DNA of 64,000 bases. Origin: Henriciella sp. (GTDB lineage Bacteria > Pseudomonadota > Alphaproteobacteria > Caulobacterales > Hyphomonadaceae). The position numbers were made by a program, and so were the translations under genes. Numbering within the stretch: the first letter of the stretch is position 1; every line of letters begins with the position of its first letter. This document shows positions 1,084 through 62,853 of the stretch, piece by piece. Under the pieces are notes generated by a model. That model was given only the letters and a program-made list of their open reading frames with translations. It searched no databases and had not been told where the DNA came from. Where the stretch lies: assembly GCA_965228095.1 (NCBI GenBank), contig OZ245793.1:3563516-3627515 (forward strand), given 5' to 3'.

Positions 1084-1089
1084 TGGCGC

Positions 1090-1126: not shown

Positions 1127-1142
1127 CGCATAGGAGGTAGAC

Positions 1143-2023: not shown

Positions 2024-2032
2024 GAGGTTTGA

Positions 2033-5942: not shown

Positions 5943-6343
5943 GCGAGCTGCGAGAGCGCCTATGGGCGTGGTGCAATGAAGTGCTCGGGCGCCCATACGA
6001 AAAGCAAACGTGGGATTGCTTTCAGTTGTTGCTTGAGGGTCAGAGTGTTGCGGGATGGCACCGCGCGTTTGAGCCAACTTATAGAGAGCAATCGGAGGAA
6101 GCGCCCGGCAAGACCATGCTCCGGAATTTCTCGCGAGGGTTTCGCCGTTTCAAGGAAATTGAAGAGCCACAGCTTGGCGCGGCAGTCTTGTTTCGAGATG
6201 AGCGGGTTCCAATCCATGTCGGGCTTTGGATGGCTCCCAACACTATGATTCACGTCAACACGACGACCGCTACCACCCTGGCAGAAATCGGCCCGGGAAC
6301 TGATTATCATTTCAATCTTGCAGGTTTCTATGTCCCAGCCTGA
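5939..6343 (+). CDS. NlpC/P60 tail assembly protein (gpK-like)
   Basis: GRPY, WDCFQL, HVGLW and IHV catalytic Cys/His motifs. Confidence 0.8.
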   Translation: MSELRERLWAWCNEVLGRPYEKQTWDCFQLLLEGQSVAGWHRAFEPTYREQSEEAPGKTMLRNFSRGFRRFKEIEEPQLGAAVLFRDERVPIHVGLWMAPNTMIHVNTTTATTLAEIGPGTDYHFNLAGFYVPA

Positions 6344-9300
6344 GATCATTGTCGTCGTCAAAGACGATCCATTCTCCGACCGCCCTCCCCGCCTTCTCAA
6401 GGCAAAGAGCGGCACACCAATTTCGGAACTGGTCGACATGGCTGGATTCGAACAGCTCGAGATCGATCACACGGAAGCCAGCATCAATGGTGAGGCGATC
6501 GACGCAGAGCTGTGGGCGGAAACTCCCGGGCAAGACCATGTGCAACTGGTCGTGCTCCCGCAGGGCGGCGGCGACGGCAACAAACTGTTACGCACGGTGT
6601 TGACGATCGCCGTTATTGTCGCTGCGTTTTACCTTGGACCAGAAGTGGCTGCATTCTTCGCTGCTGAAGGAACCAAGGCATTCGCGGCGATCTCCTATTT
6701 GACCACCGCTGTGATTACCACGGTCGGTCAACTTGCGATCAATTCAATCTTACCGCCGCCCACGTACGACTTTGGGGATCAGCCCGATCCTGTTTACTTC
6801 ATTGAGGGTCAGCGAAATCGACTGAACCCACTGCAACCAATCAATACGGTGCTCGGTCGCCACCGTATCGTCCCGAATTTGGGAGCTCGTCCCTACCCCG
6901 AGATCCGCGGCGACGACACCTATTACTACATGGTCGTCGAGCTCGGCCCGATCGACATCGAGGTTACCGATCGGCGCGTGGGCGACACACCGCTGGCTAA
7001 CATTGATGGCGTTGTTTATCAGAGCCGGTTGGTTCCAACCGACCCACACCCGACCATGGCGAGCCGTCAGGTGATCTCTGAAACGGTGGGCGCGACATTG
7101 TTGGTCTCGGATCCGGAGCTCCGCCGCACCGCATCTGACGTGATCGATTGCGATCTCATTTTTGCATTCCCGCAAGGCCTCGGGGGTACGAACAAGAAAG
7201 GCAATCCGACCAGTTTAACTGTCAACATTCAGGTGAGATATCGCGAAGTCATTAATCCTGGACCCGGTGAGACGTTCGGGGATTGGCGCTTCGCGTCTGC
7301 GCGCACCAATGCCTTGTATCCGGAGTTTCGCGGTTTCGAGAATATGTTGGCGCTTTCGGGTGGTGGCATCGGTGGGGATCCAAACTTCGGCACCTCCGCT
7401 TCATTCAGTTTTACCGAAGCGAAGCCGGCGCAGCCTTTTTTCCGGCAAGTTGGGTTCTCGTTCCCGAGCGAGGGCACCTATGAGGTTGAGGTGGAGCGCA
7501 TATCTGCGGATTCGACGGACGCGCGAGAATTCGATGATGTCACCTGGCAGACTATTCTTTCGAAACGCGATGAGCCGATCATCAATCGCGATGATGTGGC
7601 CTATGAAGTTTACCGCTTCAAAGGCACCGATGAAACAAGCGGCGCTATCGATGAGCTCAATATGGTTGTGGGGCGCTGGATGCCGGCATTCCCTGACGCT
7701 GTTTTGGATCAAGCAGACCTTAGCGGTGTCACTGCCGCCGATCTTAGCATCACGAAAGTCAGCTCAAATCCTTGGGAGCAATCTCTGTGGCTTAAGCGCA
7801 ATGGCTTCGGGGCCCGCCAACCGGTCACTGACGATGGATTCGATTGGCCGAGTTTTGCGGCCGCGGCGAAAGATGCTCGCGATCGCGGTCTGAAATTCGA
7901 CTACTACGTCAATCGCGATGTAAACGTTGATGACTTGGTCGACCTGGTCGCAAGATCTGGTGGTGAAGGGCGTGTTTATTCCTACAATAACATTCTGACA
8001 GCGGGCCTCGATCGCCCGATCGCTGCGCCAAGTCACGTCTTTCGTGATCAAACTGCCCGGAACGTCTCGACGGCCAAATCCTTTGCAGAGGAAGTTCACG
8101 CTTACATTGTGACGTTCAACGATGCGAACAATGGTTGGCGCACGCGCGAAGTGACGATTTATGTCGACGGATACGACAAGCAAACGGCGACAAAATTTGA
8201 GTCTATCCAAGTCCCGGGGAAAACAGACTGGGATGATCTGCACCGCGCTGTTGGTCAGCTTTATCGAAATTCTCGGCTTCAAAGTACGACCATGGATCTA
8301 GAGGTGCCGAAAGACAGCCTCGATAACTCATTGCGGCTGATGGGGCGTGTTTCGGTTGCGACTCGCGTGATCACTCAGGTTCAAGGCTCTGGCATCGTTC
8401 GTGGCATCACCGAAAGCGCCGGCGAAGTGACAGATGTGGAACTGGATCAGGAAATCGAGATGGGGCCCAGCTTCCCGGGCCTGGCAATCAAGTGGGTGAG
8501 TTTGGATGGTGATGGGCAGCAAGTCCTGTCTTCCCCTGCCCCACTAGATATTCCCGCCCAGGATGGGCGTGTGACATCGGTCACTTTGACAACGCCGGTG
8601 CCAACAGCATCCGGGCCGGCAGCCGGCAATGATTATATCATCGGGCCGATCGGAACCGATCTCTACGAAGGCTTGCTGCAGAATGCAGAGGATGCCGGCA
8701 GAGATTATGTTCGTCTCTTTTTGAAATCATATGCTGAAGCGCGGTTCGATGAGACTGGATATTCGATCCCGGCCTATGCCATTGAGCCTGTGCTCCCGTT
8801 TGGGTCCAGCCCGCCGTCTCCTGTTTTTGTCAGTGCTGAGGCCAGCAATTTCAAGATCACCGTGAATTTCACTGTGCCAGAGGGTTTCCCGCAACCGCTT
8901 CGCGAGATCCGAGTTTGGCGCGCCTATGCTGCGCCCGATGATGATCCGGATCCGAATGCGCTTTCCGTTTTTGAGCAGCTGCCATCACTTGGTCCTGAAA
9001 TTCGCCAATTGATTGACGCGCCTGGTCAAGTAGGTCAGCGGATCGTTTATCGATTCCAAACAGTATCGGTTCCCGGGCGTTCCAGTCCTATCATGCAGAC
9101 GCCGATTATTACGGTTGCAGACGCCTTGCCGTTCGCGAACAACTTCGCCGCGGTCGGCGCGACCGAAACCGGTTCCAATGGTGTCATCAATCCAGTGATC
9201 GAGGTCACCTGGGATCCAGATGATGATATCTCGATTCAAGAGGCAGTGATCGAGGCGCGCGTTGTCGCAAAAGATGCCGGCGACGTTCGACTTCCCGATG

Positions 9301-10259
9301 CGTCGCAGCCTGATTACACACCGGTTACAAATATCCCGGCGATAAAGGGGCGCTTTACGATCCGTGGTGTGCCGCCAGGCGTGGATATGGATGTTCAGAT
9401 GTTCTACCGCGGCCGCCGCGGTGAGATCGGCACCGCGTACGAAATCCGCGATGTGGCCGTCCCAGATGGTGCTGCCGGCACCACGGGAAGTGTCGATTGG
9501 GGAAACATCATCGGAACACCTTTAGAGCTTGTCGATGGGCGAGTCGGTGCCGGACTGAATGCGTCAGGTGATATTGCGCGCCCTATACCCGTCGCCACCG
9601 CGAATTCGTCAGGATTGCTTCGTTACACTGGCGGTGCGCTCTATACCGGTTCGCTTGATGCAGACAGAACGGCCGTAAACATCGCTGCTGGCTTTCTCAA
9701 TCAAGGTGATCTGGCGACAGAAGATGCGGCGTCCGATCGAGCCTATGCCAACTTCATTGTGGCGACGAGTGGCATCAGTTACTCCAATTCAGAGTTTAGC
9801 GTGGACGCGTCGGATCAGATATGCGGCGTCGATAATATCTATCGAGAAAAAGCGTTCGCTACGGTCAGCTGCGATGGTTCGCCTGTAGAGATTATGTTTA
9901 CCGCGTTCTTCGGCGAAGGCGCTCCCAATACATCTTCAGAAGCTCCAGAGTTGACCGTTTCCGCCCTCATTCGCCGCGTCGAGGGTGCGAAGATTGTATC
10001 GCAGGGCAGTCACGTGGCCGTACTGCGCGCAGACGGTGAATCTGGGACTAGTCGTTCATTCGGGGGCACATTCCGCGTTGTTGACGACGATCCGGGCGGA
10101 ACACCCGGGACCCCGGTTAATCGCACCTATCAGATTTTCCTCGCCACAACACGTACCAGCCCCAAACCGCCAGCGGATTTCGTTGCCATTCTCAATCCCA
10201 ATATTTGGTCCGGAATGAGACTGACCGTGCATCGGGAAAACGCTAACAACATCTCGTAA
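6330..10259 (+). CDS. Central tail tip / host-specificity protein (gpI-like N-terminus fused to gpJ-like)
   Basis: ~1309 aa; N-terminal ubiquitin-like segment ending VVLPQGGG, TM-like segment, PINTVLGRHRIVP motif, FN3-like C-terminal repeats. Confidence 0.85.
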   Translation: MSQPEIIVVVKDDPFSDRPPRLLKAKSGTPISELVDMAGFEQLEIDHTEASINGEAIDAELWAETPGQDHVQLVVLPQGGGDGNKLLRTVLTIAVIVAAFYLGPEVAAFFAAEGTKAFAAISYLTTAVITTVGQLAINSILPPPTYDFGDQPDPVYFIEGQRNRLNPLQPINTVLGRHRIVPNLGARPYPEIRGDDTYYYMVVELGPIDIEVTDRRVGDTPLANIDGVVYQSRLVPTDPHPTMASRQVISETVGATLLVSDPELRRTASDVIDCDLIFAFPQGLGGTNKKGNPTSLTVNIQVRYREVINPGPGETFGDWRFASARTNALYPEFRGFENMLALSGGGIGGDPNFGTSASFSFTEAKPAQPFFRQVGFSFPSEGTYEVEVERISADSTDAREFDDVTWQTILSKRDEPIINRDDVAYEVYRFKGTDETSGAIDELNMVVGRWMPAFPDAVLDQADLSGVTAADLSITKVSSNPWEQSLWLKRNGFGARQPVTDDGFDWPSFAAAAKDARDRGLKFDYYVNRDVNVDDLVDLVARSGGEGRVYSYNNILTAGLDRPIAAPSHVFRDQTARNVSTAKSFAEEVHAYIVTFNDANNGWRTREVTIYVDGYDKQTATKFESIQVPGKTDWDDLHRAVGQLYRNSRLQSTTMDLEVPKDSLDNSLRLMGRVSVATRVITQVQGSGIVRGITESAGEVTDVELDQEIEMGPSFPGLAIKWVSLDGDGQQVLSSPAPLDIPAQDGRVTSVTLTTPVPTASGPAAGNDYIIGPIGTDLYEGLLQNAEDAGRDYVRLFLKSYAEARFDETGYSIPAYAIEPVLPFGSSPPSPVFVSAEASNFKITVNFTVPEGFPQPLREIRVWRAYAAPDDDPDPNALSVFEQLPSLGPEIRQLIDAPGQVGQRIVYRFQTVSVPGRSSPIMQTPIITVADALPFANNFAAVGATETGSNGVINPVIEVTWDPDDDISIQEAVIEARVVAKDAGDVRLPDASQPDYTPVTNIPAIKGRFTIRGVPPGVDMDVQMFYRGRRGEIGTAYEIRDVAVPDGAAGTTGSVDWGNIIGTPLELVDGRVGAGLNASGDIARPIPVATANSSGLLRYTGGALYTGSLDADRTAVNIAAGFLNQGDLATEDAASDRAYANFIVATSGISYSNSEFSVDASDQICGVDNIYREKAFATVSCDGSPVEIMFTAFFGEGAPNTSSEAPELTVSALIRRVEGAKIVSQGSHVAVLRADGESGTSRSFGGTFRVVDDDPGGTPGTPVNRTYQIFLATTRTSPKPPADFVAILNPNIWSGMRLTVHRENANNIS

Positions 10260-10269
10260 CCACTGGAGA

Positions 10270-10512
10270 ATGAAGATGATTAGAGCTGCCCTCGCCGGGC
10301 TGGCATTGATGCTGCCTGGCTGTCAAACAATCAAAGTTCAGGGTGTCGAAATCGATCGGGAAACACAGTTCGTGGCTGCCGCGTTCGCTGTCGCCGGCGC
10401 TTTGGTAATTGCCCATCTGGCGGATGGCGATGATGAGCAGGAAAAGTGCACGCAATATGTGTCCGTCCCGCCAGGCAAAGATGCGCCATTCATGTGCGAA
10501 GATGAATGGTGA
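10270..10512 (+). CDS. Small lipoprotein
   Basis: Signal peptide with LALMLPGC lipobox; GGAG RBS; paralog 58863..59099. Confidence 0.65.
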   Translation: MKMIRAALAGLALMLPGCQTIKVQGVEIDRETQFVAAAFAVAGALVIAHLADGDDEQEKCTQYVSVPPGKDAPFMCEDEW

Positions 10513-10522
10513 GGCGAGTTCA

Positions 10523-10828
10523 ATGAAGCCCATGGAGATTGAAGAGCTCATGCCGATCCTCATAAAGGCGCGGCATACAGAGCTTTTAAATTCGCCGCCG
10601 CGCGCGATCGTGCTGACATATCGAAAACTGAAGTCGAAACAGACTCTCATGGCCGCTGAAAAGCGGCTTTTGTTTGAGTGCTGTTTGATGATCGAGATGT
10701 ACAATTTCAGCAACTCGGCCGGCGAAGCCAGCGAGGTTCGCACAGAGCTGCAGTCTCGCTTCAAGTCCTTCCAATTTCGTCTGAAACCAAAAGCGAAACC
10801 GAAGGCCAAACCGAAAGCAAAGAAATGA
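10523..10828 (+). CDS. Hypothetical protein with basic KPKA C-terminal repeats
   Basis: Conserved in both prophages (59110..59415); ATGA overlap with endolysin. Confidence 0.65.
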   Translation: MKPMEIEELMPILIKARHTELLNSPPRAIVLTYRKLKSKQTLMAAEKRLLFECCLMIEMYNFSNSAGEASEVRTELQSRFKSFQFRLKPKAKPKAKPKAKK

Positions 10829-11289
10829 CCAGTTATCGTATTGATCGCGCCGAGCGAGGTGCGCACAGCCAGTCCTGGGACATTCTAGGTGAAGGTGACA
10901 CGATCGGGCCTGAGCACCACACTCACGCATCCTGGGACCAATTGTGGCGTTGGCCGAACTTCAAGCCTGAAGAGCTGGCAAGCGAGTCCGATGGCATGTT
11001 GATGTTGTACGCGCCTGCGATCGATGCGCTTCAGGCGGTTCGAACGCATCTTGGCCAGCCACTGACCATCAATAGCGCTTACCGGTCGCCGGCGCATAAT
11101 CACAAGATCGGGGGTGCGAAGCGTTCTCGACATCTGGCTGGCGCTGCGTTTGACGTCAGCTGCCCGCCTGGATCGCAAGAGGTTCTGGCAAAGGTTGCGC
11201 GAAGCTTTGGTTTTAACGGCCTCATTTTCTATAACTCATTCGTTCACCTAGATTTCCGTGCTCGTAGATATGAACGGACACGCCGCTGA
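10825..11289 (+). CDS. Endolysin, peptidase M15A family
   Basis: INSAYRS..HN..IGGA..SRHL.G.AFD...FVHLD Zn-peptidase motifs. Confidence 0.85.
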   Translation: MTSYRIDRAERGAHSQSWDILGEGDTIGPEHHTHASWDQLWRWPNFKPEELASESDGMLMLYAPAIDALQAVRTHLGQPLTINSAYRSPAHNHKIGGAKRSRHLAGAAFDVSCPPGSQEVLAKVARSFGFNGLIFYNSFVHLDFRARRYERTRR

Positions 11290-11600
11290 TGGGTGAGCCT
11301 GTCGGGAAGTATCTCTATAAACTGGAGAATGAAGAGGAGGCCTACCTCCTTTTTTTATGCCCAGGTTGCAAGTGCACGCACCCATTCACCATTCGCCGAA
11401 CCGATCTCGCGCGCCCGTGTTGGACCTACAATGAGGATCCGGACGCCCCAACGTTCAGTCCGTCGCTCCTGGTCAATCAACACCATCCTCAATCACGCTG
11501 CCATCTCTTCGTGGAGCGCGGCCGAATTCGCTACCTGCAGGACTGTCATCATGACCTGCGGGGGCAAACGATAGACCTGCCGGCGTACCCGGCAGACTAA
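11289..11600 (+). CDS. DUF6527-like Cys/His protein
   Basis: FLCPGC..H, W..N.D...PTFSPSLLV, CH.FV..GRI.YL.DC.H pattern. Confidence 0.6.
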   Translation: MGEPVGKYLYKLENEEEAYLLFLCPGCKCTHPFTIRRTDLARPCWTYNEDPDAPTFSPSLLVNQHHPQSRCHLFVERGRIRYLQDCHHDLRGQTIDLPAYPAD

Positions 11601-11658
11601 ACAGGCGCGCCGGCTGCCTGCCCCAAACGCCGGTTCCCTCAAAACAAGGAAACTTACT

Positions 11659-11859
11659 ATGGAACCCATTATCCAAATGGTCGTGTCTGCTCTGACGCCT
11701 ATGGGCAAAGAGTTCGCGGAAAAGACCGGTCTCGATGCCGGCGAACATGTTCGAGATCTCGTAGCGGATTCAGAGAACACGCTCGATGACACCGCGGTCG
11801 AGGTGCTGGAAGTCTTTTTGAATTCCTTCATCCAGGGCTTGGGCGATCCCGCCGAGTAA
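11659..11859 (+). CDS. Small acidic hypothetical protein
   Basis: AAGGA RBS; paralog 60246..60446. Confidence 0.65.
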   Translation: MEPIIQMVVSALTPMGKEFAEKTGLDAGEHVRDLVADSENTLDDTAVEVLEVFLNSFIQGLGDPAE

Positions 11860-12090
11860 ATGGATAACGCCCTGATCTGGGGCGGTGTTCTGGTCGTCTT
11901 GTTGGGTGGCGCGCTCTACTTTGCGCGCAAATCCGGCAAGGCGTCTGAGCGGGCGTCCCGTCACGAGGCGAGAGCCAAAGACGAAAAGAAGAAATCCGAT
12001 GCGCTACAAGAAGCTAATGCCACTCCTGCTAATTCCGTTCGCGACCGGTTGCGTCGGTTGGCCCGGAAGCGAGGGGGTATGTCCGATTAG
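11860..12090 (+). CDS. Inner-membrane spanin (Rz-like)
   Basis: N-terminal TM helix then charged helical periplasmic part; overlaps lipoprotein gene. Confidence 0.7.
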   Translation: MDNALIWGGVLVVLLGGALYFARKSGKASERASRHEARAKDEKKKSDALQEANATPANSVRDRLRRLARKRGGMSD

Positions 12091-12202
12091 GCCCATCTAT
12101 AGTGAGGCTGACGTCGAGAACATGTCAGATGAGCTCGCCGAATACCTCCTGGCCGTGGAGCTTCAGGGCGAGAAAATGGGTTGCTGGGACCTGGAAGAAT
12201 AA
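11999..12202 (+). CDS. Outer-membrane spanin lipoprotein (Rz1-like), overlapping frame
   Basis: MRYKKLMPLLLIPFATGC lipobox in +1 frame starting inside the Rz-like gene; same in prophage B. Confidence 0.7.
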   Translation: MRYKKLMPLLLIPFATGCVGWPGSEGVCPIRPIYSEADVENMSDELAEYLLAVELQGEKMGCWDLEE

Positions 12203-12225
12203 ATCTAATCACACGGGGCTGGTGA

Positions 12226-12654
12226 ATGTTTCTATCGACCAAATTTATGCTGCACGGAACGCTGATCGTGTTGTCAGCGATCGCCGGAACCAGCGCGACA
12301 GTGGTGCCGGCAGCGACTTCGGTCGTTGGTCTGTCCGCGATGGTGATCGCCGCGGCCTGCGCCGGCTCGGCGTCCGCAATCCTGTTTCTGATTTTGGATC
12401 AGAAAGAACGTCCGCCCGAGCGAATTTTTCGCCGCGTCTTTTGGGTTGTGGCTGCCTTTGCGCTTGGCGCGGCCTTCGGACTGTTCGTAGGGCCTTCGAT
12501 TGCGAGTTCATCGCCGCTCGATCGAATTGCCGGCACCTATATCGGCGGCCTGGTGGGCTTCGGTGTCATCGGCGTTCTCGTAAGTCCGAAAACCATGAAG
12601 GCGCTTGGGGCCTGGCTCGTCGCGATATTGACCAAGCGCGGAGGTGGCTCATGA
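12226..12654 (+). CDS. Holin-like membrane protein
   Basis: 3-4 hydrophobic helices, basic C-terminus, lysis cluster. Confidence 0.55.
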   Translation: MFLSTKFMLHGTLIVLSAIAGTSATVVPAATSVVGLSAMVIAAACAGSASAILFLILDQKERPPERIFRRVFWVVAAFALGAAFGLFVGPSIASSSPLDRIAGTYIGGLVGFGVIGVLVSPKTMKALGAWLVAILTKRGGGS

Positions 12655-13007
12655 CCTATCTAATCGCGTTCCTGTGCCTGCTGCAGGCCGTTCTCGCCGT
12701 CATCATTATGTATTTCCTTACACAAGTGCCGTCACTGACGCCGCGATGGCCCTGGAAACATCCCTTCAGTCCGGTCTTGGAACGATTGATGAGCACCGGA
12801 ATCAACATGGCCTGGCTGGGCTATATGATCCTGATGATCTATATCGCATCGGCGTTAGCGCTCGGGGAGCTTGATGCTGAAACACTCCTGGAAATGTTGG
12901 CGATGGGTAATCCAGGACTTTTCCTGGCCTTCAGCTTTGGCTCGGTAATCCTAGGTCATTTTGCTTGGTTCGCCTGGCGCGCGGATCATCAGAGGTTCGG
13001 TCCTTAG
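12651..13007 (+). CDS. Membrane protein (holin/antiholin-like)
   Basis: 3 TM helices; ATGA overlap; paralog 61239..61595. Confidence 0.55.
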   Translation: MTYLIAFLCLLQAVLAVIIMYFLTQVPSLTPRWPWKHPFSPVLERLMSTGINMAWLGYMILMIYIASALALGELDAETLLEMLAMGNPGLFLAFSFGSVILGHFAWFAWRADHQRFGP

Positions 13008-13037
13008 AGTCGACTCCCTCCATCTTAGATTTTGTTC

Positions 13038-13066
13038 GCCCCGCCGTTTGGCGGGGCTTTTTCTTT
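13038..13066 (+). terminator. Intrinsic terminator ending late operon
   Basis: GCCCCGCC-gttt-GGCGGGGC followed by TTTTTCTTT; equivalent at 61624. Confidence 0.85.
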
Positions 13067-13148
13067 GCCTTCATTTCTGTTTCATTGGGACGGACTGTTT
13101 TTTTAACCCAACTGTTCAGGTGAAAACTGACGTGGAACTGCATCGAGA

Positions 13149-13916
13149 ATGAACCAAGGCGAACAGAACCAATTCGAAATCATGGCCGCATCTATCAAAG
13201 CGATAGCGGCCGCGACGGATCCCGCGCAGATTCTCGGCATCACCAAACATTTCCTGAGAGATTTCACATTTGGCGTAGAGCACACGGCCCACGATCGCGG
13301 CATGCTTGGCATTTTCATGTTGAAATCAGATGGGCTCGAGGAAGAGAAACGCATTTCGGTTTCGAACTGGACTCCGGCATTCGTCACGGAACGCGCGATG
13401 TTGAATGGCTACACCCACGATCCGTCTGTCATCATGGTCCAACAGGCTGCAAAGCCGTTCACCTGGGCCCAAGGTATGGAAGGCGCTGACAGGGCCTCTC
13501 TCGCGATCGCTGACCTGTGCCAGGAGCACACTGGACAGCGCGATGGCCTCACTTTCCCGATCGCGGATGTGAACATGCTGAAAGGGGCCGCCACGGTTGG
13601 ATTTGATCTGGCGCCCACGGACTTCAGTCCAATCCAGATCGGAATGATGCACCACGTCTTTATCGCCGCATATGCCCGCCTTTACCGCCTGCAGGGGCCG
13701 TTCCCAGAAGATATCTCGCCGAGCTATTCCCCGCGGCAAAGAGAAATCATTCGTCTACTGGCGCTGGGAAAGACGGTGGCGGACGCCGCGAGGATCATGG
13801 GATGCAGCGTGGCCACTGCCCAGGACCACCTGGCGCAGGCCAAACAGAAAGTCGGTGCGCGCACCAATCCGGAACTGATCGCAAAGTCGATCGATAAAAA
13901 TGTGGTGCTGCGCTGA
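13149..13916 (+). CDS. luxR: LuxR-family quorum-sensing regulator (autoinducer-binding domain plus HTH)
   Basis: 255 aa; HDP, PFTW and DGLTFP ligand-domain motifs; SPRQREIIRLLALGKT LuxR HTH. Confidence 0.9.
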   Translation: MNQGEQNQFEIMAASIKAIAAATDPAQILGITKHFLRDFTFGVEHTAHDRGMLGIFMLKSDGLEEEKRISVSNWTPAFVTERAMLNGYTHDPSVIMVQQAAKPFTWAQGMEGADRASLAIADLCQEHTGQRDGLTFPIADVNMLKGAATVGFDLAPTDFSPIQIGMMHHVFIAAYARLYRLQGPFPEDISPSYSPRQREIIRLLALGKTVADAARIMGCSVATAQDHLAQAKQKVGARTNPELIAKSIDKNVVLR

Positions 13917-13936
13917 TACCCTAAAAATTTAGGGTA
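13917..13936. promoter_or_regulatory. lux-box-like 20-bp inverted repeat upstream of luxI
   Basis: TACCCTAAA-AA-TTTAGGGTA with perfect 9-bp arms, centred ~55 bp before luxI ATG. Confidence 0.7.
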
Positions 13937-13980
13937 CCGCGGAAACTGGGAACCCGGACACTCCAATCAAAGGAGTGTTC

Positions 13981-14658
13981 ATGGCCGAGTTGATTTTACC
14001 CGAAAACCGTCACCTCTATCTGCATGTCCTCGATGCGATGCACGTCGCTCGTTTTGAGCTGTTTTTCGATGGCCTCGGATGGGATCCGGTCGAATGTGGC
14101 CTGGATCGGCCGCAAGACAAATATGACAAAGACCAGTTCGATAAAGACGATACGGTGTACATCATTGAGCGCATGCCTGAGACGGGTGAGGTGGTTGGTT
14201 TCTGCCGGATCAATCCGACCACGTCACCGCACATGATGGATCAGGTTTTCGCAGACTATTGCGAATACGATGGTGTTCCGATCGGGGCGAGCATTCATGA
14301 GGTGTCCCGGCTCGGTTATGATTATCGCGTTCTGAAGCGTAACCGCGACGACTGGAAAGAGGTCCGCTTTCGAATGACCAGCGCGATCTCAGAGTACTGT
14401 CTCTTGCGCGGCATCGACCAGGTCACCTATTGCGTTCATGATCATATCTTCAATGCCATCCAACAAGATACGTGGGGTGCCATCCCCCTTGGAAATCAGA
14501 GATATGATAAACGCCTGGATCAGTTCTATCAGGCGGGAATCTCAGATATTACACGAGAGGGCTTGGAGAGATGCCGCGCCGAACTACGTCGACCTGAAGA
14601 TGACGTTTTGACTTATTTCGGCCCGGTCGCGGCCGCACAGTTGAAGGAGGCGGCGTGA
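13981..14658 (+). CDS. luxI: Acyl-homoserine-lactone synthase (LuxI family)
   Basis: RFELF, LGW, DKDQFD, CRINPT, HEVSR match conserved LuxI residues; AAGGAG RBS. Confidence 0.9.
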   Translation: MAELILPENRHLYLHVLDAMHVARFELFFDGLGWDPVECGLDRPQDKYDKDQFDKDDTVYIIERMPETGEVVGFCRINPTTSPHMMDQVFADYCEYDGVPIGASIHEVSRLGYDYRVLKRNRDDWKEVRFRMTSAISEYCLLRGIDQVTYCVHDHIFNAIQQDTWGAIPLGNQRYDKRLDQFYQAGISDITREGLERCRAELRRPEDDVLTYFGPVAAAQLKEAA

Positions 14659-14837
14659 TGGGAAAAGCAGCGCGAAAAGTCGATCCCCTTGAAAATATTG
14701 CTGAGTTGATTGATTGGTTGACCGATCGCGCAACGGACGAAACAGGTGCGAGTGATGCGCTTCGCAAAAAGCTGGCAGAGGCAAAAGAGCAGGCCAAACG
14801 CGACCTGGACACACATCGGTCAGCGAGAGGTTCCTAG
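14658..14837 (+). CDS. Small protein (59 aa) coupled to luxI; smORF-A
   Basis: TGATG overlap with luxI stop; homologous to 61857..62054 (PL..I.EL, AT...GASD.LR, QA..DL). Confidence 0.75.
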   Translation: MGKAARKVDPLENIAELIDWLTDRATDETGASDALRKKLAEAKEQAKRDLDTHRSARGS

Positions 14838-15182
14838 ATCCAATACGGTTAGAACTGCATCCAGGGTTTCGATATCTGCGTTGCGCAGCATCTCTTTCAC
14901 TCGATCCACTCGCAGCTGCCTCGAGGCTGCGTCTCCGACGCTGTCACTCCCGAACGTTTCGGCTTCAGGAAAAAAGTAGCCGGCTTTGACCTCGAGCACA
15001 TCACAGATTTGATCGAGCACGTTGGCGGGAACCGGTCGATCTCCGCGCTCATAGTTGCTAAGGGTCGCGCGTTGGATATCAAGCTTTGCCGCGAGGCGCT
15101 GCTGGCTCAACCGTCTTTCATCGCGCGCTGCGCGTATCGCCTGCCCAATTCGGCGGTCAATTTTTTTCCGTTTAGTCGGCAT
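14820..15182 (-). CDS. XRE-family HTH repressor
   Basis: IRAARDERRLSQQRLAAKLDIQRATLSNYERG HTH_3 motif; paralog 61998..62366. Confidence 0.9.
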   Translation of the reverse strand: MPTKRKKIDRRIGQAIRAARDERRLSQQRLAAKLDIQRATLSNYERGDRPVPANVLDQICDVLEVKAGYFFPEAETFGSDSVGDAASRQLRVDRVKEMLRNADIETLDAVLTVLDLGTSR

Positions 15183-15218
15183 GGTTGATATTATAGGTAT
15201 CTCGCGCGCTGGTGGAAA
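15183..15218 (-). promoter_or_regulatory. Sigma70-type promoter giving a probable leaderless XRE mRNA
   Basis: Minus strand TTTCCA-N17-TATAAT-N7-ATG; same geometry in prophage B. Confidence 0.6.
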
Positions 15219-15447
15219 GTTTACAGAATCGAACATTTTACTACCCCTGCAACGGTGCGTTTCAGGAAACGTGTTTACTGCCCTTAAAACGACCTAATCG
15301 TATGTTGACTCACGCAACACCGATGACAAGTTTGTTTCAAAAATATAACAGCAGTCATCTGCAACTGAACTAAGCCGACAATACACGAAGGCACTTATTG
15401 CGGTGCTTTCTTATAGTACAGAATGTATAATATGGTGGGGTCTCAAA

Positions 15448-15669
15448 TTGACCAATACAGTTAATGATCAAACCGTCGCATCGTTGTTCTCCGGAAAGCT
15501 GATGCGCGCGCAAGACGTGCTCCATGCTGCCGGCACGCTGGCGCGGGTGGTTGAACAAAAGCAAGTCGTATCGGCCGGCGATCGCGATCTCGCCGCCCTG
15601 ATTGGGATCGTCACTTTGGTCCAGGAAGAATTTGACGGATTGCTCGACGAGGTTGCGCGGACTGCCTGA
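15448..15669 (+). CDS. Small protein (73 aa), smORF-B
   Basis: TTG start; homologous and equal in length to 62632..62853 (S.GDRDL.ALI, V..EF..L). Confidence 0.7.
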   Translation: MTNTVNDQTVASLFSGKLMRAQDVLHAAGTLARVVEQKQVVSAGDRDLAALIGIVTLVQEEFDGLLDEVARTA

Positions 15670-15821
15670 CCAGCGCGGTGGAAGAACAAACCAAGTTGTT
15701 CTTCCCCCATATTTCCCCCACATACCACGTTTGTTCCGGTCATTTGGCGACAATTCGCGACAATTGCCGACAAAACCCTCTTGCCTATGATTCCCATGTT
15801 TATTAGGGGTTTCCGCTCTGC

Positions 15822-15862
15822 GGAGAGGTGGCCGAGTGGCTGAAGGCGCTCCCCTGCTAAGG
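15822..15862 (+). pseudogene. 5' fragment of tRNA-Ser(GCT); putative att junction between the prophages
   Basis: GGAGAGGTGGCCGAGTGGCTGAAGGCGCTCCCCTGCTAAGG covers acceptor 5' strand, D arm and GCT anticodon loop; no variable or T arm follows. Confidence 0.85.
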
Positions 15863-15903
15863 TCCAAAGCATTTCAGTTAGACCCCTGATTCTTCTCATT
15901 TAA

Positions 15904-15919
15904 AACCGAACGCCGTTCG
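15904..15919 (-). repeat. 16-bp motif CGAACGGCGTTCGGTT, copy 1
   Basis: Identical copies at 24689, 32782 and 38124. Confidence 0.85.
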
Positions 15920-15927
15920 GCTCTTCC

Positions 15928-16542
15928 CTAGTTCTTCCGCAGCTCTTCATTCGGTGTCTCGGCCTGGGCTGCGAATTTCTCAATGATTTCAGCGCATCGC
16001 AGGCCGCCACCTGAGGCAGACAGCTGGTCGGCAATCTCGCGTCGGCGTTCCGGATCCGTTCGCTTGTTCGGATCAAAGGCAATCGCATCTGCGTCCTGGA
16101 CATCGAGCGCGCGAAGCTCCGGATGTGTGCGCAGCAGCTCGGCCGCCTTGCGACTGATATAAAGCCGGGGAGGATTGAAGCGCGTTTGCTCGTCGCGCAG
16201 TACATCTGTCATCATGATTTCGCTATCCCGCAATCCGGAGAAAGCGAGCGCGATATTGATCAGCGTTGCGTCATAGAGTTTGCGGTTTCTCGGATTGCCC
16301 ATCCGGCCTTCAGGGGTATGAAGCCCGCGCCTGGCGAGCGCCGCTTTCAAGTCTATGAGTGACTTCTTGCCGAAATTTGGCTGCGACAACCACCAGGCTT
16401 CAGTTTGCGCCGCAGCCTCTTCCCATGTCCAAACGCCGGCTATCCGAAGTGCATTTATTGTTCTGGCCTGCAGCTCATCTCCAAATTTGTCGCGATATCT
16501 CTCAATCTCGGCATTGTATTCGGATAGTGATTGATAGGTCAT
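15928..16542 (-). CDS. Protein with RNA polymerase alpha-CTD-like domain
   Basis: ELQARTINALRIAGV...WLSQPNFGKKSLIDLKAALARRGL resembles RpoA CTD (R..N.L, PNFGKKSL). Confidence 0.7.
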   Translation of the reverse strand: MTYQSLSEYNAEIERYRDKFGDELQARTINALRIAGVWTWEEAAAQTEAWWLSQPNFGKKSLIDLKAALARRGLHTPEGRMGNPRNRKLYDATLINIALAFSGLRDSEIMMTDVLRDEQTRFNPPRLYISRKAAELLRTHPELRALDVQDADAIAFDPNKRTDPERRREIADQLSASGGGLRCAEIIEKFAAQAETPNEELRKN

Positions 16543-16997: not shown

Positions 16998-17518
16998 CTC
17001 GCGCGCGCAATACGTTTTGCCTGCTCCAGGGTTGTCACACCAATCACCTGAGACGTCGTACCAACCAATTCCGTAACAGGTCGACTGCTGCCCTCATTGT
17101 AGGCGTCGATCGCCGCGTGAATGTCGTCGACGATCTCTTCGTGCGTTTGGCCCTGCTCAATGAACGACCGTGCAAATCCGGGTATGGCCTCCAGATCGCC
17201 CGGCCCGAGCATTGGGTCAGCAACCACGACATCACCGTCTCGGGTAAAATCGCCGGCGCGAGGTTTGTATAATGGGCTGCTGCTGGAGATGTTTTGCGGG
17301 TCAAAATCGCCTGGCAGGAACCCGATCAATTCCCCCGCTTGTTCAACCGGCAACATCCAGGAACTGTCTAGTTCGTCCGGAAATCCAAGGTTTGCGAGCG
17401 CCTGGCGCAAGCCAAGCTGCGAGATCATTTCGACCGGGACTCGGATGTGTTCTCCGCCCGAGAGTTTGAAGGATCTGCGATCGTTCATGCGATCTTCGAA
17501 ATTGGTAATCTCTTTCAT
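16964..17518 (-). CDS. Hypothetical protein
   Basis: Start MKEITNF overlaps integrase stop. Confidence 0.55.
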   Translation of the reverse strand: MKEITNFEDRMNDRRSFKLSGGEHIRVPVEMISQLGLRQALANLGFPDELDSSWMLPVEQAGELIGFLPGDFDPQNISSSSPLYKPRAGDFTRDGDVVVADPMLGPGDLEAIPGFARSFIEQGQTHEEIVDDIHAAIDAYNEGSSRPVTELVGTTSQVIGVTTLEQAKRIARARWNPKNQEPLG

Positions 17519-18612
17519 TTTACGGCTCTGAGATTCGGTTGTTGAGTTGGGGCTTGTTTTTGGAGCGCTGGATTTACAAAGCTCCAACCGTGATCGCGAA
17601 CGCGCTGCGCGAGGTCGGCCGGCGCGAGCTTGGTGTAGCGCAGCGCCATATCGGGTTTGCGCCAGCCGCCATGTTCCATCAACCAGGTCAGATTGTGACC
17701 GGTGGCGGCATAATACCAGGTCGCCCAGGTGTGGCGCAGAACGTGCGGGGTGACGGCATTCTCGCCTTCACTGTCAAAGCCGGCCAGTTCGCGCGCCTTG
17801 TTGAAGATGCCGGCAAACTGCCCGCCGCCATGTTCGCGGATCTTGTATTCAATGCCCCGCGGTGTGCGAAACAATCCGCCGGCGTCCGGGCAATTGCTGG
17901 TGAGCGCCGGAAAGGCGCGGGAGGCCTCCACGGGGATCCATCGTGCATCGCCATTTTTCGACGGCCCAATATAGAGCTGACGTGTCGGTGAGTTGATATT
18001 GTCGACCTGGGCTTTGATCAGCTCGCGGGTGCGGCAGCCAGTCCCGAGCAAGGTCAGAACCAGGCGCTCACAGCCATAGCCGATCGCGCGCTTGTCGCTG
18101 TCGCGATCAACCATTTGGGCGCATTCGATCAGGCGTTCAGCTTCTTCAGGCGTCAGCCACCGGATCCGCTGATTGTCGACAAGCTTTTTGCGCGGGCCGC
18201 CGCGGCGCTCATAGTTCAACACGGCGTTCGTCGGCGTCACTACCTGGCGATGTTGAGTTTGAGGTTTGGCATTCGGGTAAAGTGCCCAGGCCATGGCCTC
18301 GATAACCTGTGGGGTGACCTCTTCGCACAGCGCGTCCGGGCCCAAATGCAGAAGGATCGGTTTCAGATATCGACCGCCCCGCGGAATGGCTTTCATGTAC
18401 TTAATCGCGGCTTCAGCGAAGGTAGTTTGCGGGCCGTACATGGCCTCGTGATCGAGCTTTTCGATCAGCTCAATTAATTTCCGGTACGCGAGTGCTCTGT
18501 TGCACGTTCCAGTGCTTGTTTCCACACGTCTTCCCGTGGCTTCGTGTGTCCCTCGGATGTAATAGTTTGCGTACTTCGCGCGGTCACCCGGCGGTTTGAG
18601 TTCAAGCGGCAT
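17515..18612 (-). CDS. int: Tyrosine integrase
   Basis: TGCRTRE, HVLRHTWATW and GGW..PDMALRY catalytic motifs. Confidence 0.93.
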   Translation of the reverse strand: MPLELKPPGDRAKYANYYIRGTHEATGRRVETSTGTCNRALAYRKLIELIEKLDHEAMYGPQTTFAEAAIKYMKAIPRGGRYLKPILLHLGPDALCEEVTPQVIEAMAWALYPNAKPQTQHRQVVTPTNAVLNYERRGGPRKKLVDNQRIRWLTPEEAERLIECAQMVDRDSDKRAIGYGCERLVLTLLGTGCRTRELIKAQVDNINSPTRQLYIGPSKNGDARWIPVEASRAFPALTSNCPDAGGLFRTPRGIEYKIREHGGGQFAGIFNKARELAGFDSEGENAVTPHVLRHTWATWYYAATGHNLTWLMEHGGWRKPDMALRYTKLAPADLAQRVRDHGWSFVNPALQKQAPTQQPNLRAVK

Positions 18613-18797
18613 GGTTCTTCCTCCAGGACCTCGAGCAGCTTGTTTATGTGGTGTGGCTGCAGGTATCGAGATCGGCCTTTTCTTAAGCATGACCGGGGAG
18701 TCCGGTCTAGGATGTCACGAATGTAACGCAGACCGAACCCCTGGAATTCCGGAAGGGCCAGAAGTTCGGTGTCGTGGATGGATGCGCCGCGGGTCAT
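18474..18797 (-). CDS. Probable excisionase-like protein overlapping int start
   Basis: ATGA-coupled to upstream gene, overlaps int 5' end, basic HTH-like core. Confidence 0.45.
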   Translation of the reverse strand: MTRGASIHDTELLALPEFQGFGLRYIRDILDRTPRSCLRKGRSRYLQPHHINKLLEVLEEEPCRLNSNRRVTARSTQTITSEGHTKPREDVWKQALERATEHSRTGN

Positions 18798-22035: not shown

Positions 22036-22142
22036 CGATTGGCGCTTCCGTGGGTGGCGAAGCAGAAGATGGACGTTGCCGCGAGCGCCACCCAAAGGAC
22101 TGAGCTTAAAGCGGCGCGCCAGAAGGCTGGATCCTCGAGCAT
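22032..22142 (-). CDS. 36-aa membrane peptide (not in ORF track)
   Basis: MLEDPAFWRAALSSVLWVALAATSIFCFATHGSANR; TAATG overlap with mucR stop and ATGA overlap downstream. Confidence 0.5.
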   Translation of the reverse strand: MLEDPAFWRAALSSVLWVALAATSIFCFATHGSANR

Positions 22143-25504: not shown

Positions 25505-25537
25505 GTGAACACATTGCCACAGCGCGAAATCACGCGC

Positions 25538-25588
25538 TGTTGGTGACACCAACAATTTTCTTGTCGGAAAATGTTGGTGTGATATTAC
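25538..25588. promoter_or_regulatory. OR-like operators between cI and cro
   Basis: Perfect 17-bp palindrome TGTTGGTG-A-CACCAACA (25538-25554) and second TGTTGGTG half-site at 25572. Confidence 0.7.
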
Positions 25589-25595
25589 AAACGAC

Positions 25596-61856: not shown

Positions 61857-62054
61857 ATGCATCCGCTTGTGCAGATCCAGGAACTGCTAGTCCATATAGA
61901 AGAACTGGCGACGGCCGATATCGGGGCAAGTGATGAATTGCGTGAGCGGATCGCCGCTGCGACAAGACAGGCAGAACTCGACCTATATGCGGCTGAACTA
62001 CTTGGATCGGCTGGAGAGATCGAGAATGTGGAGGATCATATCGAGGGTGACTAG
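61857..62054 (+). CDS. Small protein (65 aa), smORF-A homolog
   Basis: GGAGA RBS; aligns to 14658..14837. Confidence 0.75.
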   Translation: MHPLVQIQELLVHIEELATADIGASDELRERIAAATRQAELDLYAAELLGSAGEIENVEDHIEGD

Positions 62055-62366
62055 GGCTGTGTCCGGTCCCATTTTTCGATTGATCTCTTCAATGCGTTGT
62101 TTGCGGGCAGCTGCATCACCGTTTGCATCACTGCCAGTCGCTTCAGCTTCACGAAAGAAATGTCCTGGCTTGATGTCCAACGCGATTGCAATTCGATTGA
62201 GCGTGCGTGCAGGAATGGGTCGAGCGCCACGTTCATAGTATCCGAGCGTCGCGCGCAAAATCGACACTCTCGCCGCCAGGCGCTCCTGGCTCCAACCTTT
62301 CGCGCGTCTCGCCGATCGAATTGCTGTGCCCAGCTGTTGATCAAAAATTTGGGGCGTCTCGACCAT
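61998..62366 (-). CDS. XRE-family HTH repressor
   Basis: IRSARRAKGWSQERLAARVSILRATLGYYERG; paralog of 14820..15182. Confidence 0.9.
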   Translation of the reverse strand: MVETPQIFDQQLGTAIRSARRAKGWSQERLAARVSILRATLGYYERGARPIPARTLNRIAIALDIKPGHFFREAEATGSDANGDAAARKQRIEEINRKMGPDTALVTLDMILHILDLSSRSK

Positions 62367-62402
62367 GGTAGAGAATATAGAGATCTCGCTCACTGGTGGA
62401 AA
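62367..62402 (-). promoter_or_regulatory. Promoter giving a probable leaderless XRE mRNA
   Basis: Minus strand TTTCCA-N17-TATATT-N7-ATG. Confidence 0.6.
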
Positions 62403-62631
62403 GTTTACAGACTCAGCCATAATCGCCATCCTGCAACACAGCGTTTCAGAAATCATTCCGATCTCTTAAAAAAGACAAATTGTCTATGTTGACTCGTGCA
62501 ATACGCGTGCTCAGTTTGTTTCAAAAATATAGCAACAATCTTCTGCAACTGAACTAAGCCGAAAATACAAATGCGTACTCTCGACGGTCCGCATTAATAA
62601 TACAGAACGTATAGTATGGTGGGTAATAGCA

Positions 62632-62853
62632 TTGTCGAAAGCAAGTATTGATAGGGACGTCACACCCTTAATGTCCGTTCGGTTAATCCGGACTCGAGCG
62701 ATGATACATTCGGTAAAAACGATGGCCGATGCGGTCGACGGAAAGGCCAACATTCAATCAGGAGACCGCGATCTCGAGGCTCTGATCGCAATGGCGTCGG
62801 TGGTTCACGATGAGTTTGAGAGTTTGATGGCGGATTTCGACCAGCAGACCTGA
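62632..62853 (+). CDS. Small protein (73 aa), smORF-B homolog
   Basis: TTG start; aligns to 15448..15669. Confidence 0.7.
   Translation: MSKASIDRDVTPLMSVRLIRTRAMIHSVKTMADAVDGKANIQSGDRDLEALIAMASVVHDEFESLMADFDQQT

What the first reader, a model, noticed from the sequence alone, without database searches (positions are those of the whole stretch)
13149..14837. Prophage-encoded complete LuxR/LuxI quorum-sensing module wired to a small protein
Seen: luxR and luxI with intact hallmark motifs sit between the late terminator (13038) and the att junction. luxI is coupled by a TGATG overlap to a 59-aa protein that converges on an XRE repressor. The sister prophage has the same smORF and XRE but no luxRI, so luxRI was gained or lost as a unit upstream of smORF-A. 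Established: LuxI makes AHLs; phage VP882 uses a quorum-sensing receptor to induce a small antirepressor (Qtip); arbitrium lets phages count infections with their own signal. Inference: this prophage makes and senses its own acyl-HSL-type signal and uses it to drive smORF-A, an arbitrium-like or density-dependent switch in a Gram-negative host, possibly biasing competition with prophage B.
Basis: partly seen in the sequence, partly recalled or inferred. Interest (0 to 1): 0.9.

Follow-up and report, generated by a model that had tools for sequence, protein, structure and literature searches.

The report
Prophage quorum-sensing module driving small protein
A dormant virus in a marine Hyphomonadaceae bacterium carries its own complete LuxR/LuxI signal-and-receptor pair joined to a tiny protein gene; phage quorum sensing of this kind was first described in a 2026 preprint, but this gene layout and host group are new.

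Summary
The window contains two tandem sister prophages in tRNA-Ser(GCT). The att cores lie at window -31195, 15822 and 64146. Prophage A carries luxR (13149-13916), a 20-bp dyad (13917-13936), luxI (13981-14658) and a 59-aa smORF joined by a TGATG overlap (14658-14837). The smORF converges on an XRE gene (14820-15182). All of this lies 1.2 kb inside A's right att core. Prophage B has the smORF, XRE and 73-aa cassette at 38-48% identity but no luxRI.

New evidence:
- This luxI is the genome's only LuxI, and the host has two LuxR solos.
- The dyad is unique in the 3.7-Mb genome.
- The order luxR-luxI-smORF-convergent XRE recurs in nine other loci, down to 36% LuxI identity and on different phage backbones.
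- Three dyad classes co-vary with three LuxR recognition-helix classes.
- The smORF is under purifying selection and models as a helical hairpin.

The most likely reading is a phage-private autoinduction loop whose direct output is the smORF, feeding a phage regulatory switch. The direction (lysis or lysogeny) and the smORF's target are not shown.

Prophage LuxI/LuxR systems were described in Roseobacter prophages in 2026 (Bunsick et al.), and transcription-factor-plus-smORF modules in 2023 (Silpe et al.). I class this as a new variant of a known kind. The scan had not found it on other DNA.

The parts
13038..13066 (+). Intrinsic terminator that closes the late (lysis) operon of prophage A
   Evidence: G+C-rich 8-bp stem followed by a T-run. 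Prophage B has the equivalent terminator at about 61625-61650.
13149..13916 (+). luxR, a 255-aa LuxR-type receptor and transcription factor with a non-canonical ligand pocket
   Evidence: Pfam Autoind_bind and GerE both score above their cut-offs. PDB sequence matches are RhlR, TraR, LasR and CviR. W74, F78, R82, D91, P92, W106 and G133 are conserved across the phage family.
13917..13936 (.). lux-box-like dyad TACCCTAAAAATTTAGGGTA, centred 54 bp before the luxI ATG
   Evidence: It is unique in the 3.7-Mb genome at up to 3 mismatches. A dyad sits at the same place in all 12 related loci, and the three dyad classes co-vary with three LuxR recognition-helix classes.
13956..13980 (+). Conserved hairpin that pairs with the luxI Shine-Dalgarno sequence
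   Evidence: The region 13940-13990 folds at -19.6 kcal/mol, z = -3.1 against shuffles. The sequence GGACACTCC..AGGAGTG is kept in L005, L006 and L011.
13981..14658 (+). luxI, a 225-aa acyl-homoserine-lactone synthase homologue and the only LuxI in the genome
   Evidence: Pfam Autoind_synth 5.6e-14. It is the only PF00765 match in the genome. A family profile matches BjaI (5w8a, 5e-22), TofI and RpaI. R24, F28, W34, D49, D51, R76, E107, S109 and R110 are invariant.
14658..14837 (+). smORF-A, a 59-aa helical-hairpin protein translationally coupled to luxI through a TGATG overlap
   Evidence: A stop/start overlap is conserved in 10 loci. dN/dS is 0.28-0.42. The AlphaFold model has pLDDT 87.8 with helices 10-24 and 33-58. 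No known family or fold matched.
14820..15182 (-). XRE-family regulator, 120 aa (138 aa if it starts at 15236), convergent with the smORF and overlapping it by 18 bp
   Evidence: HTH_3 3.9e-13; matches PHROG repressor and regulator families. Convergent 3' overlaps of 18-57 bp are kept in all loci. A promoter-like site TTTCCA-17-TATAAT at 15218-15190 would give a nearly leaderless mRNA.
15183..15447 (.). Conserved control region between XRE and the 73-aa gene, with divergent promoter-like sites
   Evidence: It is the only part of the right arm that prophages A and B share at DNA level (76% identity). Long invariant blocks span six loci.
15448..15669 (+). 73-aa helical-hairpin protein with a TTG start, transcribed divergently from XRE
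   Evidence: Homologues sit at the same place in B, L005, L006, L009, L010, L011 and L036. The AlphaFold model has pLDDT 80.9 with helices 4-37 and 46-72. No family or fold matched.
15822..15861 (+). att core at the junction of prophages A and B: the 5' 40 nt of tRNA-Ser(GCT)
   Evidence: Three exact copies exist in the genome, and the intact tRNA is at 64146-64236.
61857..62853 (.). The cassette of prophage B without luxRI: smORF-B 61857-62054 (+), XRE-B 61998-62366 (-), 73-aa gene 62632-62853 (+)
   Evidence: BLASTP identity to the prophage A proteins is 44%, 48% and 38%. About 200 bp of non-coding DNA lies upstream of smORF-B where A has luxR-luxI.

Best explanation
Prophage A is a 47-kb siphovirus-like prophage integrated in tRNA-Ser(GCT). 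It carries a self-contained acyl-HSL-type quorum-sensing circuit whose direct output is a small protein.

Shown by sequence and comparison:
- luxR, a dyad operator that starts 1 nt after the luxR stop codon, and a luxI-smORF bicistron lie 1.2 kb inside the right att core.
- luxI is the genome's only LuxI.
- The dyad is the only site of its kind in the genome.
- The gene order and the luxI/smORF overlap are conserved across diverged phages.
- The dyad sequence co-varies with the LuxR recognition helix.

Inferred:
- LuxR bound to the LuxI product binds the dyad and controls luxI-smORF. This would give autoinduction, and smORF production would then report the density of cells that carry this phage.
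- The 59-aa helical-hairpin smORF acts on a phage regulator. The candidates are the adjacent XRE/73-aa switch, which convergent transcription into the overlapping XRE gene could also affect, and the 224-aa HTH_3 protein of the main switch.
- The signal thereby enters the lysis-lysogeny or superinfection decision.

The direction is unresolved. A phage-made signal reports lysogens, and the only tested phage LuxI/LuxR systems promote lysogeny, so I lean (about 55:45) towards signal favouring lysogeny. Induction through an antirepressor of the Silpe type is the alternative.
For: - Inside the prophage: att cores at -31195, 15822 and 64146.
- A 48.3-kb metagenome contig (L005) joins the luxRI-XRE side to the integrase side across the same partial tRNA core, like an attP joint.
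- Family membership and catalytic residues.
- Only LuxI in the genome.
- The dyad is unique in the genome.
- Synteny luxR-luxI-smORF-convergent XRE in L005, L006, L009, L010, L011/L012, L013, L016 and L018. These sit on different tail and lysis backbones, with LuxI identity as low as 36%.
- L007, a phage with DnaB and RusA genes, keeps luxR-luxI-smORF.
- Three dyad classes match three LuxR helix classes.
- smORF dN/dS is 0.28-0.42 and it models confidently as a helical hairpin.
- The LuxI C-terminus ends in invariant Ala-Ala (Glu-Ala-Ala in 9 of 11). It overlies the smORF ribosome-binding site.
- Precedents: a phage XRE-LuxR pair activates a smORF that inactivates cI (PMC10432266); prophage LuxI/LuxR controls lysogeny (PMC13345283).
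Against: - There are no expression, signal or binding data.
- The LuxR score is only just above the Pfam cut-off. Two ligand-contact positions are non-canonical (F78, R82), so the ligand may not be a standard AHL.
- No sigma-70-like promoter was found for luxR.
- XRE shows no sign of controlling the rest of the phage, and each prophage has a separate canonical switch.
- The module sits in the accessory region, where prophage B carries a BrnT/BrnA pair.
- Phage-type luxRI also occurs without smORF or XRE next to host genes (L015, L017).
- L007 has no adjacent XRE.
Confidence: 0.55

Rival explanations
1. The module is a moron that benefits or manipulates the host. The prophage supplies the only AHL synthase to a host that has two chromosomal LuxR solos. 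The main effect would be on host group behaviour, such as biofilm or competition, and the smORF would be incidental or serve host regulation.
For: The phage luxI is the only LuxI in the genome, and two LuxR solos are flanked by housekeeping genes. The module lies between the late terminator and att, the usual place for morons, where prophage B carries BrnT/BrnA. LuxI is patchy in the genus, found in 13 of 71 genomes. Bunsick et al. report a phage autoinducer that activates host quorum sensing (PMC13345283).
Against: The module has its own receptor, and the only predicted operator drives luxI-smORF. The tight luxI-smORF-XRE linkage is conserved across phages. The smORF/XRE/73-aa cassette is a conserved feature of prophage right ends even without luxRI.
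Confidence: 0.2
2. The cassette is a density-gated accessory function. Under this reading smORF, XRE and the 73-aa protein form a small immunity, exclusion or toxin-antitoxin-like unit. The quorum-sensing input switches it on at high lysogen density to protect the lysogen from other phages, and it does not set prophage A's own lysis-lysogeny choice.
For: The XRE protein matches antitoxin-type and defence-regulator HTH models (HipB/Y4mF, PezA, CapH, restriction-modification control proteins). Two small helical proteins flank it. It lies at the prophage end beside a BrnT/BrnA pair in B. No XRE-region motif appears at the main switch.
Against: Neither small protein matches any PADLOC, Pfam or NCBIfam model, or any toxin-like fold. 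The HTH matches are generic.
Confidence: 0.15
3. The module is an inactive remnant: luxR or luxI no longer functions, and the arrangement persists only because it was acquired recently.
For: Low family scores, below the NCBIfam equivalog cut-offs. The LuxR pocket is altered.
Against: All frames are intact and the LuxI catalytic residues are invariant. dN/dS is 0.12-0.13 for luxR and luxI across relatives whose synonymous sites are saturated. The pocket substitutions are family-wide rather than private.
Confidence: 0.05

Closest known systems
Prophage hth / xre-luxR-luxI quorum-sensing switches of Roseobacter prophages (Phaeobacter inhibens T5 phages A and B; Bunsick et al., bioRxiv 2026, PMC13345283)
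   Same: A complete LuxI plus LuxR pair is encoded by an integrated prophage of a marine alphaproteobacterium. An XRE regulator and a divergent small gene sit beside it. The module is exchangeable: present in one phage and absent from a close relative. The host is a polylysogen.
   Different: - Here XRE is not the first gene of a xre-luxR-luxI operon. It is convergent with luxI and overlaps its downstream gene.
- luxI is translationally coupled to a smORF that the Roseobacter modules are not reported to have.
- XRE's divergent partner is a 73-aa helical hairpin with no recognisable HTH.
- The host is Hyphomonadaceae (Henriciella/Hyphomonas-like by RecA), whereas the paper found its modules only in the Roseobacter clade.
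- The host has no luxI of its own, so the paper's screen for genomes with two or more luxI genes would have missed it.
- There is no detectable LuxI match in the phage record collection.
TF-smORF modules, in particular XRE-LuxR plus smORF of Aeromonas phages ARM81ld and Apop (Silpe et al., Nature 2023, PMC10432266; Silpe and Bassler, mBio 2019, PMC6456758)
   Same: A phage LuxR-type receptor sits next to an XRE protein and a roughly 50-aa ORF, and the small protein is the proposed output to a repressor. A relative keeps XRE plus smORF but lacks luxR (prophage B here; the Shigella phages in that paper).
   Different: - Those phages have no luxI and listen to the host's C4-HSL.
- Their smORF is counter-oriented to xre-luxR; here it is co-oriented and coupled to luxI.
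- They are linear plasmid-like phages; this one integrates at a tRNA.
- The smORF showed no match to any family or fold library. It was not compared directly with their smORFs. That the smORF acts on a repressor is untested here.
Arbitrium (AimR-AimP-AimX) of SPbeta-like Bacillus phages
   Same: The logic is the same: the phage makes and senses its own diffusible signal and passes the result to a small downstream effector.
   Different: The components are unrelated (a peptide signal and a TPR receptor against an HSL-type signal and a LuxR receptor). This is an analogy only.
VP882 VqmA(Phi)-Qtip
   Same: A phage quorum-sensing receptor drives a small protein.
   Different: That receptor is of the VqmA type and senses host DPO. 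The phage makes no synthase. Qtip is an antirepressor shown to sequester cI. (From my own knowledge of the literature.)

Membership tests
LuxI-type acyl-HSL synthase (Pfam PF00765) | Sequence match above the curated cut-off | tested here: met
   52.5 bits against a cut-off of 24. A family profile matches BjaI, TofI, RpaI, LasI and EsaI structures. Scores are below the NCBIfam TraI equivalog cut-offs.
LuxI-type acyl-HSL synthase (Pfam PF00765) | Conserved N-terminal catalytic and SAM-binding residues (the R24, F28, W34, D45/D48, R68-70, E97-101, S, R pattern; named from my own knowledge of LuxI/TraI work) | tested here: met
   R24, F28, W34, D49, D51, R76, E107, S109 and R110 are invariant in 11 family members.
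LuxI-type acyl-HSL synthase (Pfam PF00765) | Makes an acyl-HSL | not testable with these tools
   This needs heterologous expression with LC-MS or biosensors. The best structural relatives, BjaI and RpaI, are known (from my own knowledge) to use acyl-CoA substrates, so a non-fatty-acyl HSL should be looked for.
LuxR-type autoinducer receptor | Autoinducer-binding domain plus a C-terminal GerE/LuxR helix-turn-helix | tested here: met
   PF03472 25.5 bits against 23, and PF00196 30.6 against 23.5. Full-length alignments to RhlR, TraR and LasR.
LuxR-type autoinducer receptor | Canonical ligand-pocket residues (TraR W57, Y61, D70, P71, W85, G113) | tested here: not met
   D91, P92, W106 and G133 are present, but W57 is F78 and Y61 is R82. 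Both substitutions are conserved in all or nearly all of 10 relatives. The fold and the aspartate are kept, but the ligand may be atypical.
LuxR-type autoinducer receptor | Binds an 18-20-bp dyad (lux box) at a target promoter | tested here: inconclusive
   There is no binding assay. A unique dyad lies in front of luxI, and three dyad classes co-vary with three recognition-helix classes over 10 loci.
Roseobacter-type prophage QS switch (hth <-> xre-luxR-luxI; PMC13345283) | luxR and luxI carried inside a prophage | tested here: met
   att cores bracket the module.
Roseobacter-type prophage QS switch (hth <-> xre-luxR-luxI; PMC13345283) | A three-gene xre-luxR-luxI operon with a counter-oriented hth gene upstream | tested here: not met
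   The order here is luxR, luxI, smORF on the + strand and XRE on the - strand. XRE's divergent partner has no HTH.
TF-smORF induction module (PMC10432266) | A transcription factor gene next to a small ORF that it activates | tested here: inconclusive
   Adjacency, coupling and the dyad are shown. Activation was not tested. The orientation is co-directional rather than counter-oriented.
TF-smORF induction module (PMC10432266) | The small protein inactivates the phage master repressor and causes lysis | not testable with these tools
   The smORF has no homology to the XRE C-terminal domain and no informative fold match.

The most novel reading that the evidence does not exclude
This would be a phage-private chemical channel with a protein effector. 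Prophage A makes and senses its own, possibly non-canonical, HSL in a host that has no other synthase. The signal would then count only this phage's lysogens. The count would pass through a luxI-coupled 59-aa hairpin protein to a three-gene smORF/XRE/73-aa switch, which sets lysogeny against lysis. The tandem sister prophage B keeps the switch but lacks the sensor, so it would be a 'deaf' competitor or free-rider. This would be a third architecture of phage quorum sensing, combining the 2023 TF-smORF logic with the 2026 LuxI/LuxR logic, and it lies outside the Roseobacter clade.
Probability: 0.4. Interest if true: 0.75.

Novelty: new variant of a known kind. Interest (0 to 1): 0.6.

Why it matters
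Phage-encoded LuxI/LuxR communication has so far been shown experimentally in one preprint, whose survey reported it as confined to Roseobacter prophages with one gene layout. This locus shows the idea in another family of marine bacteria and with different wiring: the synthase gene is translationally coupled to a small effector protein that converges on an XRE regulator.

It also offers a clean natural experiment. Two sister prophages sit in tandem at one att site, one with the sensor and one without. The host has no AHL synthase of its own but has two LuxR solos. The set of related loci gives three matched pairs of LuxR helix and operator, which could be used to study how phage signalling channels become insulated from each other.

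Tried and rejected
- SinI/SinR-type mechanism (small protein homologous to the repressor's oligomerisation domain): profile-profile comparison of smORFs against XREs found nothing (probability 0.2%).
- Fold searches with the smORF and 73-aa models against BFVD and PDB: no match better than E 0.5, only generic helical hairpins. The 73-aa protein is all-helical, so it does not look like an Xis-type winged helix.
- Rfam on 12900-16100: only sub-threshold hits on the terminator.
- PADLOC, NCBIfam and PHROGs: nothing for the smORF, the 73-aa protein or LuxI; only generic HTH hits for XRE.
- LuxI and LuxR against GenBank phages, and LuxI against PLSDB plasmids: no match.
- Pattern scans of GTDB representative genomes and IMG/VR for the LuxI family: no relative.
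- Looking for more luxRI-less cassettes through XRE: only the known contigs, a close relative of prophage B (L035) and a truncated contig (L036).
- Shared operator words between the XRE control region and the rest of each prophage: none convincing.
- No alphaproteobacterial SOS box (GTTC-N7-GTTC) was seen by eye upstream of smORF-B or luxR.
- Host naming: the RecA cluster look-up gave no name. The RecA homologue search points to Henriciella/Hyphomonas.
As a result I could not check reads for attP circles or transcripts, or fetch wider context of G075, G045, G037 and G052.
Full report
**1. What is in the sequence**

- luxR, 13149-13916: Autoind_bind plus GerE.
- luxI: Autoind_synth, 52.5 bits. 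It most likely starts at the ATG at 13981, 5 nt after AAGGAG.
- A 59-aa ORF whose ATG shares the A of the luxI TGA (TGATG, 14656-14660).
- A convergent XRE/HTH_3 gene whose 3' end overlaps the smORF by 18 bp.

A strong terminator at 13038-13057 closes the lysis operon.

**2. Prophage boundaries**

Self-comparison shows that window 1-12998 is a 70-82% identical copy of 48593-61586. The whole genome (3.7 Mb, one contig) holds a second integrase 82% identical to the one at 17515-18690.

A 40-nt core, the first 40 nt of tRNA-Ser(GCT), occurs exactly three times, at window -31195, 15822 and 64146. Only the last copy continues into a full tRNA.
- Prophage A spans about -31155 to 15861 (47 kb).
- Prophage B spans 15862 to 64185 (48.3 kb).
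- luxRI lies 1.2 kb inside A's right end.

In a 48.3-kb metagenome contig (L005) the same partial tRNA core joins the luxRI-XRE side directly to the integrase side, like an attP joint.

**3. Comparison with sister prophage B**

B has homologues of the smORF (44% identity), XRE (48%) and a divergent 73-aa gene (38%). It has no luxRI: about 270 bp stand where A has 1.66 kb. The XRE/73-aa control region is the only right-arm DNA that the two phages still share at nucleotide level (76%). It is strongly conserved across six loci.

Each prophage also has a separate, canonical-looking switch: a 224-aa HTH_3 protein facing a CII-like gene (25154-25828 and 26076-26621 in B, 62-69% identical in A). XRE is therefore not obviously the master repressor. 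No sequence words of its control region recur elsewhere in either prophage.

**4. Genome context**

The phage luxI is the only PF00765 match in the genome. Two further LuxR-type receptors are chromosomal solos flanked by housekeeping genes. RecA places the host in the Henriciella/Hyphomonas group of Hyphomonadaceae. In 262 genomes of the family, 97 have some LuxI. In the host's genus only 13 of 71 do, and the closest is 52% identical.

**5. Relatives of the module**

The LuxI family is small.
- 12 proteins at 57-77% identity among 5.8 billion.
- 15 clusters at E ≤ 1e-30 among 1.84 billion representatives.
- None in GenBank phages, PLSDB, IMG/VR or the GTDB pattern scans.

Seven related sequences were inspected. 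Six of them (L005, L006, L009, L010, L011/L012, L013) have the same order:
- luxR, then luxI, then a 54-60-aa ORF that overlaps the luxI stop;
- a convergent XRE gene that overlaps the small ORF;
- a small divergent gene.

They lie behind different tail and lysis modules. The seventh, L007, a phage with DnaB and RusA genes, keeps luxR-luxI-smORF without an adjacent XRE.

Two genomes of the host's genus keep the full arrangement with LuxI at only 42% and 36% identity (L016, L018). Two others have phage-type luxR-luxI alone next to host genes (L015, L017). Typical host systems in another genus have a different partner gene and no smORF.

The smORFs fall into at least two sequence types that travel with matching XRE types. 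They show dN/dS of 0.28-0.42 and model as a confident two-helix hairpin.

**6. The operator**

A dyad starts within a few bases of the luxR stop in all 12 loci and is centred 42-63 bp before the luxI ATG. The window's dyad, TACCCTAAAAATTTAGGGTA, has no other copy in the genome at up to three mismatches.

The dyads fall into three classes that match three LuxR recognition-helix classes:

| Dyad class | LuxR helix class |
|---|---|
| ACCC...GGGT | CSVATAQDH-like |
| CTGTCC-N4-GGCCAG | C(A/T)RRTAK(H/Y)H |
| TATCAGATCTGATA | T(S/T)(E/Q)(S/A)NVRMQ |

This is the best available evidence that LuxR binds there and that luxI-smORF is its direct, and perhaps only, target.

A conserved hairpin covers the luxI Shine-Dalgarno sequence (z = -3.1). 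The LuxI C-terminus ends in invariant Ala-Ala (Glu-Ala-Ala in 9 of 11) and overlies the smORF ribosome-binding site.

**7. Are the enzymes credible?**

The LuxI catalytic residues are invariant. The closest solved structures are BjaI, TofI and RpaI.

LuxR keeps D91, P92, W106, G133 and the DNA-binding signature. It has F78 and R82 where TraR has W57 and Y61, and these substitutions are shared by the whole phage family. The signal may therefore be an unusual HSL.

**8. Mechanism**

Shown:
- A complete synthase-receptor pair inside an apparently intact prophage.
- A single operator in front of luxI-smORF.
- Deeply conserved coupling of luxI to a small protein gene and to an XRE cassette.

Inferred:
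- Autoinduction.
- smORF production as a read-out of lysogen density.
- Action of the smORF, and of convergent transcription, on XRE or on the main-switch repressor.
- An effect on the lysis-lysogeny decision.

The direction is open. Silpe-type smORFs trigger lysis (PMC10432266). The only tested phage LuxI/LuxR circuits stabilise lysogeny (PMC13345283), and a signal made only by lysogens argues the same way.

The rivals are a host-directed moron, a density-gated accessory or immunity unit, and an inactive remnant. They are weighed in their own sections.

**9. Novelty**

Prophage LuxI/LuxR modules were reported in July 2026 (PMC13345283). They are described as hth/xre-luxR-luxI cassettes found only in the Roseobacter clade. 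That screen required two or more luxI genes per genome, which this genome would fail.

The present module differs in gene order, in the luxI-coupled smORF, in the non-HTH divergent partner and in host family. The preprint's main text does not mention Hyphomonadaceae, and no other paper on such a system in that family was found. I class it as a new variant of a known kind.

**10. Limits**

All functional statements beyond family membership are inference.

Noticed in passing
15764-15861 and 64088-64236: The phages integrate into the 5' half of tRNA-Ser(GCT), not the usual 3' end. The 74 nt upstream of the core are identical at the A/B junction and at attR of B, and they include a promoter-like TTGCCG-16-TATGAT. 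The phage therefore appears to supply the promoter and the 5' half of the working tRNA.
   Followed up: partly
genome G000:C1:3159583-3160020 and 3284553-3284981 (outside the window): Two chromosomal LuxR solos sit beside housekeeping genes (gatB; mazG and glnA) in a genome whose only LuxI is phage-borne. They are candidates for phage-to-host signalling.
   Followed up: partly
12 loci: window 13917-13936, L005-L007, L009-L011, L013, L015-L018: Three classes of LuxR recognition helix match three classes of dyad operator, while the LuxI proteins stay 57-77% identical. This is a natural set of specificity swaps.
   Followed up: yes
13956-13980: A conserved hairpin pairs with the luxI Shine-Dalgarno sequence (-19.6 kcal/mol, z = -3.1). 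It may be a translational brake or part of the promoter.
   Followed up: partly
15183-15447 and 62367-62631: The XRE/73-aa intergenic region is more conserved across diverged phages than the flanking coding DNA. It has repeated GTTTCA(G/A)AAAT and TGCAAC blocks. No Rfam family matched.
   Followed up: partly
13113-13126: A near-palindrome TGTTCAGGTGAAAA lies upstream of luxR. In L005 the palindrome is perfect (TGTTCAcaTGAACA). It may be an operator for another regulator of luxR.
   Followed up: no
62854-63502: Prophage B carries a BrnT toxin (4.6e-25) and BrnA antitoxin (2.8e-17) pair between the cassette and attR. Prophage A lacks it.
   Followed up: yes
25154-26621: A second, canonical-looking switch in prophage B: a 224-aa HTH_3 protein without a peptidase domain faces a CII-like (CP76) gene. 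Homologues in prophage A are 62% and 69% identical.
   Followed up: partly
22142-24570: The early operon encodes a full-length Ros/MucR regulator (4.5e-45) and a 680-aa protein with a ParB_N domain.
   Followed up: no
15928-16542: A 204-aa protein with an RNA polymerase alpha C-terminal-domain-like region (PF03118, 24.9 bits against a cut-off of 23.8) lies between the att core and the integrase of prophage B.
   Followed up: no
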